Assembly: GCA_964016885.1 (NCBI GenBank)
Contig: OZ024748.1
Span: 13,640,001 to 13,704,000, forward strand
From: Eledone cirrhosa
Taxonomy: Eukaryota
DNA: 64,000 nucleotides
Direction: 5' to 3'
Shown: positions 8,623 through 59,156 of the stretch, in pieces
How positions within the stretch are numbered: the stretch's first letter is position 1
Layout: the number at the start of each line of letters is the position of its first letter
Notes under the pieces: model-generated
Databases searched by the model: none
What the model saw: only the letters and a program-made list of their open reading frames with translations
Told to the model about the DNA's origin: nothing
Position numbers and translations under genes: made by a program

Positions 8623-9138
8623 CCTCTTCCTGCCATATCAAGCGTTAACCTAATATATTCCTTCCATATACTGTACCGATTGTGTTGTTATTTCTGTTTA
8701 CCTTTTACACACACACACACACACATACACATACACACATATATATATATATATATTATAATCCGATGAAATACTTTGAAAGCGTAAAACATATATGACG
8801 ACCTTGCAGATGCAGAGTCAGGTTCGATCTGTAACATTATTATGTAAATAAATTGTGTTTTAATGCATCACTGATTCATTGTTATCTGTAATAACATACT
8901 CTGCTCTGCGCGAGCATCGGACTCATTCATTGCAACCATACAACAACTATATATATATATATATATATATATATATATATATATATATTGTTATACTTTG
9001 GGAGGGTCATGTTGTCAATAAGAAACACACGCACCAGTTGCTTTCACTTCAATTTATTATAATAAATTTATAAATTTAGGAATTTATAAATTTCCGGTTG
9101 GTTGGTTGGTTCCACAACCAGATGGTTGTTTATATATT

Positions 9139-9181
9139 GTCAAAGTTCTTTCGTCACACATTCTGTGACCTCTTCAGTGAC
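9139..9181 (-). ncRNA. Minimal type I hammerhead ribozyme
   Basis: Minus: gtca-CTGAAGA-g-gtcaca-gaatg-tgtgac-GAAA-g-aa-c-TT-tgac. Confidence 0.7.
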
Positions 9182-9284
9182 TGGGGATTCTTTTCTTTGT
9201 TTTTGTGCCTCTCCTTTGAAACAAGATGGCATAGGACAGAACAAAGGAGAGGCACAAAAACAGAAAACAAAGAAAAGAATCCCA

Positions 9285-9327
9285 GTCACTGAAGAGGTCA
9301 CATACTGTGTGACGAAAGAACTTTGAC
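9285..9327 (+). ncRNA. Minimal type I hammerhead ribozyme
   Basis: gtca-CTGAAGA-g-gtcaca-tactg-tgtgac-GAAA-g-aa-c-TT-tgac; helix I 4 bp, helix II 6 bp, helix III 2 bp. Confidence 0.7.
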
Positions 9328-10343
9328 AATATATAAACAACCATCTGGTTGTGGAACCAACCAACCGGAAATTTATAAATTCCTAAATTTATAAATTTAT
9401 AATAAATTTAAGTGAAAGCAACTGATGCGTGTGTTTCTTATTGGCAACATGACCCTCCCAAAGTATAACAATATCGGTTTCAACACACGTTTTCAGATAA
9501 AGAATCTTGCTAAAGAAATTCAGAAACGAAATATATATATATATATATATATATATATATATATATATATATATATATATATATATATATATATATATAT
9601 ATATATATGTGTGTGTGTGTGTGTGTGTGTGTGTGTGTGTGTGTGTGTGTAGGACAGGCGTGTTATATGGTCTATGTTTACAAGCAAACTTATATACACC
9701 AGGTTATATAATTACATCATTAAGTATAACAAGTGCATATAATTATATGTTTTCTGTTGCATATATTTGGATGCTGGTGTTACGACAGTGCAGTGGTGGT
9801 ATATATACACACACAATGCCACATATACTGACACACACACACACACACACATATATATAACCATATATACATATATATATATATATACATATGTATATAT
9901 GTGCGTGTATGTATCTATGTATATGTATATATATATATGTGTGTGTACATGGGAGTATGCATACGAGAACGAGTAGTTTCATTGGTGAAAAAAAAAATAC
10001 GATCGTCTAACATCAAGACCAAGAAGTTCTCACCTTACGTATGATTAAAATGTTCGAAAGTCATTAAGTAAAGCATACATACTTCGTTTCATACAGCGTA
10101 CACATTGTGGAGTTTGGCATCCATGTTTTCTTTCTTTACAAAATTACTATATTAATATCTGTATGGTGGTCTTCAGGAAAATATATAGATAATTTAGCAA
10201 TAACCCCGCAGAAACAAAGGCATAGAGTATATATATATATATATATATATATATATATATATATATATATATATATATATATATATATATATATATATAT
10301 ATATATATATATATACATACCTATATATATATATATATATATA

Positions 10344-10520
10344 TACATACCAACACATATATATTCATATATATATATCATATTTACATACATACCAACA
10401 CATATATATTCATATATATATATCATATTTACATACATACCAACACATATATATTCATATATATATATCATATTTACATACATACCAACACATATATATT
10501 CATATATATATATCATATAT
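10344..10520. repeat. 45-bp minisatellite x4 evolved inside (TA)n
   Basis: caacac recurs at 10351, 10396, 10441 and 10486. Confidence 0.9.
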
Positions 10521-55406: not shown

Positions 55407-55590
55407 GCGGTGATTGGCACTATCGTTAGAGGTCGGACGCCATGCTTTCCAGCATAGTTACGTCACTTTACGGTCTGAATTCAAATCCCGTCGAGGTTAA
55501 CTTTACCTTTCATCCTTACGGGGGTCGATAAAATAAAGTACCAGTAATACACTGAGACAATTGTTGGCCTTGTGCCAAAAGTAGAAACAA
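55407..55590 (+). mobile_element. SINE family 1 copy
   Basis: Same boxes, core and tail. Confidence 0.85.
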
Positions 55591-58097
55591 TAATATCGTA
55601 AAAGGCATATTGTGAGGAAACGGCTGCATAGTTCCATGATAGGAATTACGTTAGTGCTGTGAAATCTCGCATGCATTAATTTCAATTCTTCTTATTAATA
55701 ACTGCATTGTTATTGAAAAATAAACCTCCTTTGGTCAGTCCTTGAGAGTATCTTGGTCAGCCTAAACCATTCAGCCTGTGAAACCTTCAGCCCGCGAACT
55801 TTATATCCAACCCTCCAATATTACATGAGATATGTTGCATACACCGCATTGTATATACTATTGTGTATACATTAAAAAAACATTTATATGTAGACTATTT
55901 TATTTACTCTATACTATACATACCATAATGTCAATACGATTTATATACGCAAGTTTATGCTGTATGCATCTAACTGTTTATTCCATTTTTATACATTTTA
56001 GAATTATTATGTATACATGATTTTGTATACCCTTTATTATACACACCAATGTGTGTATAATAAATTGTGCGTGTTTTTAAGATATAGAGAATAAAAGAGA
56101 GAGCGCGAAAGTGAGATGGAATGATAGAGAGAGACAGAGTCTGATAGAGAGACGGAGAGTGAGAGAGCGACGGAAAGGGAGAGAGATAGAGAAAGAGGTT
56201 GAAAGACAGAGGGACAGAGAGATATATATATATACAAAGCGTGAGATAGATACAGAGAGAGAGAAGAAGAGAGAGGGGGAGAGGGAGAGAGAGAGTGAGA
56301 GAGAGTGAGAAAGGCAGAGAATGAGAGATACACAGAAAGTGATGGACATACCAAATTGTAAGATTTACCGTACAATTTTCTTTTCTCAAAGTGATATATA
56401 TTGGAATGAGAGCAATTACCACACATTGAGGAGAGTGATACACGACGAAATATGTGGGCGAAAAACATACGTTAATTATACATGTATATAGAAGCATACA
56501 TGTTATTGTTTTCTGCTTGCATTTGCTTAGGTTGGCTATTTGTTCTTTTGTCTTGTACAATGTATTTAAACATATATAGAAATTGTACATATTTATGGAA
56601 GTAAACATATTATTGTTTTCTGCTCATCTTTGCATATGCTGACGATGTCATTCACTCTCGCTTATTCTCTGCCGCTTTCTCTGTCTCTCTGACTCTAGTT
56701 CTCTCCATCACCCTCTGTGTCTCTCTCATTCTCTCTCTTTCTCACGCGCTCTCTCTCTCTCTATCTCTCTTTCTGTCTCTCTCTCACTCTCTGTATTTCT
56801 CTCTGTCTTTCTCATTCGCTCTCTCGCTCTATCTCACTTTCTGTATCTCTCTCACTCTCTGTATTTCTCTCTGTCTTTCAATCAGTGTCTATCTCTCTCA
56901 CTTTCTGTCCCTCTCTCATTCTCCATCTCTCACGCTATCTCTCTCTCTATCACTCTCTCTCTCTCTCTATCTATCTCTCACACTTACGCTCTCTATCTAT
57001 ATCATACACACACACACTCTCTCTCTCTCTCTCTCGCTGTCCGACTCCCCCCACAGAATATCTCTCTCTCGCTCTCTCACAGACACACACATACACACAC
57101 ACCCCATCTCCCCCTCTCTCTCTGTACATACACACACTATCTCTCTCTCTCTCTCACACACACACACACACTATCTTTCTCTCTCTCTATTTGCCGTTTC
57201 CTACATCTGACATACATCTATTCAAATATCTTTATGGAAACACGTAATATTCTGTTGATTGTCATTTAATTATGGATTATGATGTCCACCTCTATTGATT
57301 AGTTTACTGCTACGGAAGCTATCTCCATTGCATGATGAAACATATAATAACCAATACAAACAACATATTAAAGAGTGTGAAACAATCGGTTGTGATTTTT
57401 ACATGGAAACTTCTAGGTTACTGTCATATGTTATAGTATAAGTTTCTAGATCAGCATATGGCATGGTTATACAGTATTGTTATGTACGATGCATTGATGG
57501 TTTTCTGGTATGAATAAACACTGCAATTATAGTTATTGTTGGTGTTGTGTTGTTGTTGTTAAAGTTGTTGTTTTTATCATTTTTTTGCTTGTTATTTTTG
57601 TTTATAGAATTCGTATTGATGATGTTTCTTTAGCTGTTGATGATGTTGTTGTTATTGGTATTGCTTTTGTTGCTGTTGATGTTGTTGTTGTTATAGTGTT
57701 GCTTGTCACTACTGTAGTTATTAGTGTTGCTGTTGCTACAGTTGTTGTTGTTGTTGCTACTGTTGCTGAAGTTGTTGCTGTTGCTGTTGCGACTGTTGGT
57801 GTTGCTACTGTAGTTGTTAGTGTTGTTGTTGCTGTTGCTACTCCAGTTGTTAGTGTTGTGGTTACTACTGTTACTGTTTGTCTTGCTACAGTTGTAGTTA
57901 TTAGTGTTGTTGTTCCTATTGTAATTGCTGTTGTTGCTACTGTAGTTGTTGTTGTTGCTGTTGTAATTGTTATTTCTATGTTAATTATATTTATTATTGT
58001 TGTTGTCCTTTTTCCTGGTTATTTTAGTTAATGAAATTCTTCTTGATGTTGTTTCTTTAGATGTTGTTATTTTTGTTATTGTTGTTATTTTTGTTAA

Positions 58098-58282
58098 GGG
58101 CGATGGATTGGCAGTATCGGTAGAGAGTCGGGCGCCATGCTTTCCAACATAGTTACGTCCCTTTACGGTCTGAGTTCAAATCCCGCCGAGGTTCACTTTG
58201 CCTTTCATCCTTACAGGGTCGATAAAATAAAGTACCAGTAATGTACTGGGTATTTGTTGGCCTTGTGCCAAAAGTAGAAACA
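58098..58282 (+). mobile_element. SINE family 1 copy
   Basis: Same boxes, core and tail; follows a (GTT/GCT)n tract at 57540-58090. Confidence 0.85.
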
Positions 58283-58807
58283 GTTCTTTTTGTTATTGTT
58301 GTTAGTGTTGCTGCTGCTGTTACTGTTCTTTCTATGTTATCATTAGAAATATAAACCACCGATCATTACAAGAATGACAGTATCACATAAAACACAAATT
58401 GATAAAAAAATTCACGGAAAGAGACACGTGTTAATAATGAATAGCTGACTCCCTGCCAAAATAACTACATGCTTACATACATATATACACTCGCAGATAA
58501 ACACATATAAATATAAATATACAATATACATACATACACACACCACCTATATATATATATATATATATATATATACATGCACACACATATATACTGTATA
58601 TGTAAATATATACACATATATATGTGTGTGCATGTATGTATGTATATATATATATATATATATATATATATATATATATATATATATATATATATATAAT
58701 AAAGTATATATCCCTACACGCACAAAGCGTCTAGGGACATATGTATTGCCGCCCACCCATATGCCAATGTGGTTCAATGGCAGGTTAATAAATTCACGAG
58801 CCAGAAC

Positions 58808-59156
58808 ATATATAATCAAGGTTTAGCAAATAAGAAAAAGTTTCAAACTAAATTTTAAAAGATTCACTGTACTCACTATGGTTACCTTTACCGAATCGGT
58901 TTCGAGTCTCAAAAATAAATGGACAGTCCTTGCGGTCTTCCATTGAAAAGATAAACTCTCATCAGAAGGGTCTTTTCACTCGGAAAGTTTATCTTTTCAC
59001 TCGGAGAGTTTATCTTTTCAATGGCAGGCCGCAAGTACTGTCCATTTATTTTTGAGATTCGAAACCGATTCGGTAAAATTAACCATAGTGAGTACAGTGA
59101 ATCTTTTAAAATTTATTTTGAAACTTTTTCTTATTTGCTAAACCTTGATTATATAT
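58808..59156. mobile_element. 350-bp palindromic HHR element next to (TA)n
   Basis: ~150-bp inverted arms; apex contains a 21-bp stutter tcttttcactcggaaagttta. Confidence 0.85.
58885..58969 (-). ncRNA. Type I hammerhead ribozyme with long helix II
   Basis: Minus: cctt-CTGATGA-gagttt...aatgga..cc-gcaa-gg..tccatt...agactc-GAAA-ccg-att-cgg-TA-aagg. Confidence 0.8.

What the first reader, a model, noticed from the sequence alone, without database searches (positions are those of the whole stretch)
8985..59156. Community of short palindromic hammerhead-ribozyme elements living in (TA)n microsatellites
Seen: at least seven sequence-unrelated non-coding elements (8985; family A at 12152/23983/52103/54631; 19469; 31518; 32808; 34411; 36052; 58808) contain CUGANGA...GAAA...UH hammerhead cores or halves with pairable helices. 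Most abut (TA)n, and five families are head-to-head palindromes whose arms include the ribozyme or its 3' half. Known: Penelope-like elements carry type I HHRs in pLTRs, often have inverted 5' copies, and some clades target microsatellites; animal non-LTR retrozymes are tandem HHR repeats. Inference: these are non-autonomous, ribozyme-bearing foldback retroelements mobilised in trans (no RT or GIY-YIG ORF here). About one locus per 5 kb and the shared palindromic form across unrelated families stand out.
Basis: partly seen in the sequence, partly recalled or inferred. Interest (0 to 1): 0.9.

Follow-up and report, generated by a model that had tools for sequence, protein, structure and literature searches.

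The report
Penelope stubs, cap-marked on both arms
These small palindromes are mostly stub copies of known ribozyme-carrying Penelope-type jumping genes, and an extra G on both arms where they join suggests that each arm was likely copied separately from a capped RNA, which offers a testable answer to how these elements insert.

Summary
The hammerheads are real (9 hits against about 0.03 in shuffles), but they are not a new foldback class. Families at 52103, 32816 and 34411 are ends of Hydra-clade Penelope-like elements (PLEs); 8989 belongs to a Neptune/Nematis-type PLE. Their ORFs lie elsewhere in the genome. Three others (19469-20058, 31353, 58698) are 480-520 nt non-LTR retrozyme monomers. 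19469 holds no ribozyme half. The density is ordinary for this genome (p about 0.19). Inverted ends, one-sided tails and (TA)n targeting are published. What appears new is mechanistic: outer ends are one long plus one short in 61 of 64 unbiased palindromes; in three Hydra families many junctions sit at one initiator-like A; and 34 of 37 three-base spacers read C-N-G, an untemplated G on both arms. Best reading: both cut target strands prime on capped sense RNA and the two cDNAs join head to head, against the published antisense self-priming idea. No RNA data; cleavage untested. This scan noted the stubs, stagger, capped-RNA reading and SGC fold before, on other DNA of this genome.

The parts
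8989..9530 (.). Family B stub: head-to-head ends of a Neptune/Nematis-type PLE; short end at 8989, long end at 9530; minimal type I hammerheads on both arms (9139-9181 minus, 9285-9327 plus)
   Evidence: ORF link in L197 and L198
12157..12262 (.). Family A (Hydra-clade PLE) older palindromic stub; helix I damaged
12402..12470 (-).
12618..12688 (+).
   Evidence: 58 BLAST matches in held loci
19469..20058 (+). Family G non-LTR retrozyme insertion: inverted tail (19469-19625 palindrome, no ribozyme) plus one monomer of about 517 nt ending in (TA)n
19797..19874 (+). Type I hammerhead of family G (GUC site)
23984..24187 (.). Family A stub, hammerhead on both arms, short end left, long end right
31353..31845 (+). 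Family H non-LTR retrozyme monomer of about 479 nt between (TA)n tracts, not palindromic; hammerhead 31520-31607 read by eye
32816..33033 (.). Family E stub (Hydra-clade PLE): both arms carry only the 3' half; the parent's core reads CAGAAGA instead of CUGANGA
34411..34602 (.). Family D stub (Hydra-clade PLE): arms start inside loop II, so only GAAA, helix III and the UC site are present
36053..36092 (-). Family I small type I hammerhead, not palindromic here; repeated family, parent not traced
38062..38257 (+). Decayed family A copy (38062-38168) followed by a family D half (38202-38257)
50351..50452 (+). Non-circularly permuted (type-SGC order) hammerhead candidate in a (TA)n-flanked repeat (50346-50503); this copy has G at the cleavage position where 29 of the 30 fetched copies have A
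52103..52286 (.). Family A young stub; intact type I hammerhead 52231-52283 (GUA site), long end left
54632..54753 (.). Family A partial copy: inverted tail plus the 5' half of the core
58698..59149 (.). Family F retrozyme insertion (486-nt monomer family), head to head; full hammerhead on the minus arm (58885-58969), 3' part only on the plus arm

Best explanation
The palindromes are insertion products of endonuclease-bearing Penelope-like elements and of retrozymes that likely ride on them, and each arm is likely a separate cDNA copied from sense RNA. Shown: families A, D, E join Hydra-clade ORFs and B a Neptune/Nematis-type ORF; F, G, H are ORF-free tandem monomers; both 3' ends point outward into (TA)n; one outer end is short and the other long by a family-specific 60-92 nt; many A, D and E junctions fall at one pyrimidine-A position, often with an untemplated G on both arms. 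Inferred: (1) that A is the capped RNA polymerase II start (TATAAA lies exactly 30 nt upstream in family A); (2) the GIY-YIG nickase cuts both strands of a (TA)n tract; (3) the two 3' ends prime at two fixed AU-rich sites just downstream of the hammerhead; (4) both cDNAs run to the cap and gain a C opposite it; (5) the two cDNA ends are joined head to head, often through one added A or T. The template must be uncut at the hammerhead site, which fits D (start inside loop II) and E (variant core). Longer partial-tandem copies and the retrozyme arrays would come from longer or circular RNA, where the hammerhead would cut out monomers.
For: Parent ORFs: intact 712-aa ORF 175 nt after the core in L123, L124, L128 with RWR, DKT, YRDD, CxCx5C, GIY-YIG, CxxC and CxH, the Hydra signature (PMC8557442 section 11); E and D ORF pieces; B with a CX4CxxC linker and GIY-YIG. 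Stagger: long+short in 61 of 64 head-to-head copies whose two ends could be classed, among loci not fetched by their own family's query; about 48% expected from single-copy ends; 16 further copies had an unclassed end. 73 of 80 such copies touch (TA)n, against 926 of 10449 random positions. Junctions: the farther arm starts at -7 to -3 from C3 in 12 of 17 A copies, none further upstream; at +38 to +51 in 27 of 35 D copies. Base before the E start A, genome-wide: natural T 21341, G 1907, A 867, C 745; only 6 fit a deletion origin for the G. First 50 listed loci per family (of 272, 296 and 1983): three-base spacers read C-N-G in 20 of 20 (A, where templated letters would give G-N-C), 10 of 12 (E), 4 of 5 (D); one-base spacers are C or G in 15 of 16 (E) and 11 of 12 (D) (counted by hand). 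Untemplated 5' G is the accepted mark of cap reverse transcription in LINE-1 and SVA (PMC4859970, passages). Spacers of 0-1 base between the G-extended arms leave no room for a snap-back loop (inference).
Against: No transcript data, so start site, cap and cleavage are all inferred. The start positions were chosen after seeing the pile-ups. A TATA box at -30 is clear only in A. Most E copies run upstream of the start (21341 against 3519), and B, F, G junctions are scattered (arms within 15 nt of each other in 4 of 16, 0 of 10, 0 of 16), so the cap signature covers a subset. In D, 11 of 50 spacers are the natural palindrome AAATTT, which fits microhomology joining or snap-back. CAG and CTG are one spacer read on two strands, so copies need not be independent; independence rests on three unrelated families and two D subfamilies. 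In the small local test G made up 11 of 19 free bases at the start against 11 of 59 elsewhere (p 0.002), uncorrected for positions where G is the natural base. Family A covariation is modest (3 of 13 pairs; 192 of 500 shuffles as high). No long sequence match ties F, G or H to an autonomous family.
Confidence: 0.68

Rival explanations
1. Same parents, but the inverted arm arises by fold-back: one cDNA reaches the RNA 5' end or stalls, snaps back or is sealed into a hairpin, and is copied; the short end is a later nick or strand transfer at an AT-rich site.
For: Junctions are nearly symmetric in A and D (39 of 45 and 42 of 55 within 15 nt, own-query loci included). AAATTT spacers in 11 of 50 D loci. 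A hairpin copy would also put G on both arms. PMC3846280 (passages) reads junction palindromes as self-priming.
Against: Spacers of 0-1 base between the G-extended arms are too short for a priming loop (inference). The long+short rule needs an extra fixed step. The published version needs an antisense template, whereas the extra G lies at the sense 5' end.
Confidence: 0.2
2. One reading: a distinct class of non-autonomous foldback elements that move as palindromic units.
For: 39 other copies are identical to the 52180-52287 palindrome over 108 nt. F, G, H are non-coding.
Against: A, B, D, E run into ORFs. The same junction occurs with the long tail on either arm. Junctions vary. Stubs of A lack the TATA box.
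Confidence: 0.05
3. The pile-ups are reverse-transcriptase stall sites at ribozyme helices or splice acceptors, and the G is plain terminal addition rather than a cap mark.
For: A and E starts coincide with the first base of helix I, and both lie beside pyrimidine-rich AG motifs. An intron end maps to helix I in Drosophila Penelope (PMC4209133 part 2).
Against: The D start is in a loop. TATAAA lies at exactly -30 in A. G is rarer at other end positions. In A the arms keep the AG that splicing would remove.
Confidence: 0.07

Closest known systems
Hydra clade of C-terminal EN+ Penelope-like elements (Craig et al. 2021, PMC8557442; passages, section 11 and supplement file 1 part 2 read), including Hydra-1_Obim and Penelope-13_HM
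   Same: Single ORF with RWK-type, DKT, CxCx5C, CxxC and CxH motifs; type I hammerhead at the end, often with U after CUGANGA and U before GAAA as in File S2; (TA)n targets; inverted 5'-truncated copy; tail at one end.
   Different: Tails are 60-92 nt rather than 30-40. Stub-only insertions are very numerous. The junction at a fixed start with G on both arms is not in the passages read. Families A, D, E were not aligned to the published sequences, so whether they are new families is untested.
Insertion layout of EN+ PLEs in Adineta vaga (Arkhipova et al. 2013, PMC3846280; passages read)
   Same: Head-to-head pLTRs with palindromes at the junction, optional tail, TATA and initiator in the pLTR, pLTR-driven mobilisation in trans.
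   Different: That paper proposes self-priming on an antisense template; the data here point to capped sense RNA copied twice.
Metazoan non-LTR retrozymes (Cervera and de la Pena 2020, PMC7229834, passages; Li et al. 2026, bioRxiv 10.64898/2026.07.22.740005, parts 1-3 of 5 read)
   Same: F, G, H: ORF-free head-to-tail repeats with one type I hammerhead per unit; PLEs proposed as the helper.
   Different: Monomers of 465-518 nt; they show the PLE insertion layout itself (inverted arm, long and short ends, (TA)n), a structural link that the passages read do not give.
PLE hammerheads (Cervera and de la Pena 2014, PMC4209133, parts 1-2 of 4 read)
   Same: Minimal hammerheads with an extra base before helix II (family B); mostly single truncated copies; pairs on opposite strands 100-700 bp apart already noted.
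   Different: About 218,000 scanner-positive loci by extrapolation (95% interval 169,000-275,000), above the counts seen in those papers (up to 120,000 in axolotl); rough, from 950 kb.
Type-SGC hammerheads, HRIMA-1 (Eckert et al. 2023, PMC10085705; passages read)
   Same: Block order site, GAAA, CUGANGA, with helices I and III as pseudoknots.
   Different: Here in an animal genomic repeat; helix II is reduced to one covarying pair continued by an extra upstream strand; cleavage untested; the window copy is mutated at the site.
LINE-1 twin priming and cap-derived 5' G (PMC4859970, passages read)
   Same: Two primers from the two target strands; untemplated G at full-length 5' ends.
   Different: In LINE-1 the inverted part is upstream sequence (recalled); here both arms copy the same stretch and both reach the 5' end.

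Membership tests
Hydra-clade PLE (family A) | Single ORF, RT followed by C-terminal GIY-YIG | tested here: met
   712 aa, YRDD at 346, GIY-YIG at 584-603; Pfam GIY-YIG only weak, E 0.069; 591 homologues of about 700 aa, nearly all unnamed
Hydra-clade PLE (family A) | RWK-type motif, DKT, CxCx5C linker, CxxC and CxH around E and N, no CX2-5CxxC | tested here: met
   against the definition
Hydra-clade PLE (family A) | Hammerhead at the end and (TA)n insertion | tested here: met
Hydra-clade PLE (families A, D, E) | Phylogenetic placement of RT with published Hydra proteins | not tested
   no tree built; reference proteins not loaded
Hydra-clade PLE (families D, E) | Hydra motifs in the linked ORF | tested here: met
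   E: RWR, DKT, YRDD in L225, endonuclease part not seen; D: CxxC and CxH C-terminus, then about 1 kb of 3' UTR, in one locus, L172
Neptune or Nematis PLE (family B) | CX2-5CxxC linker before a C-terminal GIY-YIG with CCHH | tested here: met
   CIDKKCITC, two Cys inside GIY-YIG, later His residues; ORF broken in L198; the two clades were not told apart
Non-LTR retrozyme (F, G, H) | Head-to-tail repeat with a type I hammerhead per unit and no ORF | tested here: met
   F periods 486, 486 in L094; G 515-518 and H 465-479 from partial tandems; longest ATG frames 52, 36 and 63 aa
Non-LTR retrozyme (F, G, H) | Self-cleavage and circular RNA | not testable with these tools
   needs bench work
Type I hammerhead | Core CUGANGA, GAAA, UH with three helices | tested here: met
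   9 hits; E parent has CAGAAGA, so not met for E
Type I hammerhead | Helix covariation | tested here: inconclusive
   family A only, 15 of 31 distinct variants aligned: 92% of cells paired, 3 of 13 pairs change on both sides
Rfam hammerhead families | Gathering score | tested here: not met
Type-SGC hammerhead (50351) | Order site-GAAA-CUGANGA with covarying helices I and III | tested here: met
   15 of 31 distinct copies aligned (near-duplicates, chimeras and 5'-cut rows left out): 93% of cells paired, 17 of 35 pairs change on both sides, slid controls 2-6; helix I 5 of 7, helix III 1 of 6
Type-SGC hammerhead (50351) | Direct helix II between the 10.x and 11.x strands | tested here: not met
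   only pair 10.1-11.1 forms and covaries; each strand pairs instead with an upstream strand; the GTCC/GGAC helix shows no covariation
Type-SGC hammerhead (50351) | Cleavage at the predicted site | not testable with these tools
   needs in vitro assay; window copy has UG at the site

The most novel reading that the evidence does not exclude
Penelope-like elements insert by double target-primed reverse transcription: both strands of a cut (TA)n tract prime at two fixed sites on capped sense RNA, both cDNAs copy to the cap, and their ends are joined by a one-base template jump. This explains the inverted pLTR and the one-sided tail together, overturns the antisense self-priming idea, and shows retrozymes using the same machinery. 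The same community includes an active scrambled-order hammerhead with a rebuilt helix II in an animal genome.
Probability: 0.5. Interest if true: 0.8.

Novelty: new member of a known kind. Interest (0 to 1): 0.6.

Why it matters
PMC8557442 calls the PLE transposition cycle still undefined and names the tandem/inverted structures, the tail and microsatellite bias as open problems. Thousands of tiny stubs record single insertion events and give base-level predictions: the start nucleotide, a cap-derived G on both arms, a one-base joint, and two priming sites 60-92 nt apart. PLE reverse transcriptases are sister to telomerase, so their priming and template jumping are of wider interest. In practice, such palindromes are easily mis-annotated as MITEs or unknown repeats. 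The scrambled hammerhead, if it cleaves, extends a fold described from metatranscriptomes to an animal genome.

Tried and rejected
Rfam scan of the whole window at E up to 10 was swamped by microsatellite microRNA models; the repeat finder was swamped by (TA)n. The first pattern for the intact family D ribozyme (gap 12-42) returned 61 heterogeneous chimeric joints; the longer gap found 8 real copies. I first took family A for Neptune and B for Poseidon; the motifs say Hydra and Neptune/Nematis. I first put the H monomer at 412 nt; exact anchors give 465-479. My first SGC structure string was misregistered and was corrected. The first end-walking script was confounded by subfamily differences. 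U opposite U at 10.1/11.1 looked new but is in published Hydra hammerheads. High local density was rejected. Minimum-energy folds of single copies mostly do not show the hammerhead junction, so they were not used as support. Sequencing runs for family G: no RNA holder listed. A hairpin motif after the ends (lead from earlier notes) was seen after 6 of 11 tested ends, including F, G and H but neither B end; suggestive only. Literature searches for prior reports: hammerhead+Penelope+octopus, Penelope-like+hammerhead+microsatellite+non-autonomous+inverted (13), retrozyme+Penelope (50), Penelope+start site+pLTR+promoter (68), Penelope+inverted+twin priming+tail (79), Penelope-like+cap+non-templated+head-to-head (98). 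None listed a paper reporting a cap G on both PLE arms, but subscription papers are not covered and bioRxiv supplements were closed. Octopus terms were used because the repeat make-up recalled such genomes; the organism was not tested. PMC13282606 (passages) does not mention ribozymes or palindromes.

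
Full report
Observation. The window is 31% G+C and rich in (TA)n. A scanner requiring CUGANGA, GAAA, UH and three helices finds 9 hits at 7 loci; shuffles give 0.03. Eight local palindromes match the listed elements. Corrections: 19469 has no ribozyme half; 31518 and 36052 are not palindromic; 32816 and 34411 hold 3' halves only. 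No Rfam family reaches its cut-off.

Density. In 95 arbitrarily placed 10-kb stretches (950 kb) the same scanner finds 69 loci, and 1-3 after shuffling. The window's 7 loci per 64 kb compare with 4.6 expected (p 0.19); the window also has 1.6 times the average number of (TA)n runs. The genome as a whole is unusual: about 218,000 loci by extrapolation (169,000-275,000), a rough figure from 0.03% of the genome.

Parents. Family A: the 75-nt tail continues into an ORF in most printed loci; three loci hold an intact 712-aa frame between two copies of the ribozyme. It has RWR, DKT, YRDD, CxCx5C, GIY-YIG, CxxC and CxH, the definition of the Hydra clade (PMC8557442 section 11). Family E continues into a related ORF in 3 of 20 loci; its core reads CAGAAGA. 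Family D's whole hammerhead was found in 8 loci; one locus links a Hydra-type endonuclease end through about 1 kb of UTR to the D end. Family B continues into an RT with a CX4CxxC linker and GIY-YIG, so Neptune or Nematis. Families F, G, H are head-to-tail monomers of 486, 515-518 and 465-479 nt without ORFs: non-LTR retrozymes. Parents of I and J were not traced. The window itself holds no PLE ORF.

Known layout. Inverted 5'-truncated copies, a tail at one end, (TA)n targeting and pLTR hammerheads are all published (PMC8557442; PMC3846280; PMC4209133), including a Hydra element from an octopus. Retrozymes as PLE passengers have been proposed (PMC7229834; bioRxiv 10.64898/2026.07.22.740005). 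As a kind of element this is therefore not new.

Outer ends. Each family has two preferred 3' ends at AT-rich sites, 60-92 nt apart. In loci not fetched by a family's own query, head-to-head copies have one long and one short end in 61 of 64 classed cases (2 long-long, 1 short-short; 16 more unclassed), against about 48% expected. The long tail can sit on either arm of the same junction. The palindrome is thus built at insertion. F and G follow the same rule where both ends could be classed (9 of 9 and 4 of 4, own-query loci included).

Junctions. In A the farther arm starts at -7 to -3 from C3 in 12 of 17 copies and never further upstream; in D at +38 to +51 in 27 of 35; in E at -5 in 5 of 12. 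Each pile-up is at an A after a pyrimidine, and TATAAA lies exactly 30 nt upstream in A. Genome-wide, the base before the E start is the natural T in 21341 cases, G in 1907, A in 867 and C in 745; a deletion explains 6. Among the first 50 listed symmetric junctions per family, three-base spacers read C-N-G in 20 of 20 (A), 10 of 12 (E) and 4 of 5 (D), 32 of the 34 with A or T in the middle; one-base spacers are C or G in 15 of 16 (E) and 11 of 12 (D) (hand counts; one-base spacers in A are ambiguous because C is the natural base there). An untemplated 5' G marks cap copying in LINE-1 and SVA (PMC4859970).

Mechanism. The simplest account joins both observations: the endonuclease nicks both strands of (TA)n; one end primes at the short site and the other at the long site of capped sense RNA; both cDNAs reach the cap and gain a C; the ends are joined head to head. 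The template was uncut by the hammerhead, which suits D (start inside loop II) and E (variant core). All enzymatic steps are inferred. The main rival is fold-back of one cDNA; PMC3846280 favours self-priming on an antisense template. Limits: no RNA data; positions chosen after the fact; most E copies pass the start; B, F, G junctions are scattered; 11 of 50 D spacers fit microhomology; the copies' independence is argued, not shown.

Scrambled hammerhead. Following a lead from earlier notes, I found a (TA)n-flanked repeat at 50346-50503 with 1269 first-look candidates. Its blocks run site, GAAA, CUGANGA, the type-SGC order of PMC10085705, described there from metatranscriptomes. Across 15 copies, 17 of 35 proposed pairs change on both sides, with slid controls at 2-6; relatedness inflates the shuffle control. 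Helix II is reduced to one covarying pair continued by an upstream strand. The window copy has G at the cleavage position, 29 of 30 fetched copies A. The random sample holds 7 such loci in 950 kb, shuffles 0-1. A link to Naiad elements claimed in earlier notes was not tested.

Verdict. The elements are new members of known kinds. The interest lies in the junction evidence, which makes the PLE insertion mechanism directly testable, and in the SGC fold. Earlier notes of this scan reached the stub, stagger, capped-RNA and SGC readings on other DNA of this genome; they are AI notes and are not counted as support. The junction counts were made before I saw the capped-RNA note.

Noticed in passing
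window 3480-3520 (minus) and 8588-8705: Two decayed copies of a further minimal hammerhead family (extra base before helix II, palindromic helix III); 26 BLAST matches in held loci.
   Followed up: partly
window 17050-17352; relatives at 5358-6205, 14533-14752, 55397-55605, 58097-58289, 62602-62924: An abundant repeat of about 190 nt, once as a 300-nt palindrome, with no CUGANGA; not identified.
   Followed up: no
window 42423-43265: Tandem array of about nine 94-nt units, 93% alike, with partial similarity to the repeat above.
   Followed up: no
window 2294-2835, 33868-34354, 38857-39343: A repeat of about 490 nt ending in (TATG)n, three copies 94-95% alike; probably a SINE or LINE 3' end.
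   Followed up: no
L198 (family B, about 64-70 nt upstream of the core): Many B copies begin just before CAAGATGGC, which resembles the YY1 site at the LINE-1 start (recalled); a possible start signal for B.
   Followed up: partly
L222, L225 and other family E loci: The E core has U4 replaced by A in about 25,000 exact matches; in some palindromes the junction recreates CUGAAGA.
   Followed up: partly
L197, L198: The family B ORF carries long Asn/Thr-rich low-complexity inserts before the RT, like the Asn-rich inserts described in PMC3846280.
   Followed up: no
window 7798-7873 and 48670-48746: Two copies of a repeat with CUGAUGA that fits neither of my scanners.
   Followed up: no
window 21271-21557, 24808-24867, 37661-37996: Further small inverted pairs, the first flanking a (TA)n tract; no ribozyme core seen.
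   Followed up: no
L031, L032, L045: Short direct re-starts of family A after its tail; two (L031, L032) begin with G before the start A, as a jump to a second capped RNA would give.
   Followed up: partly
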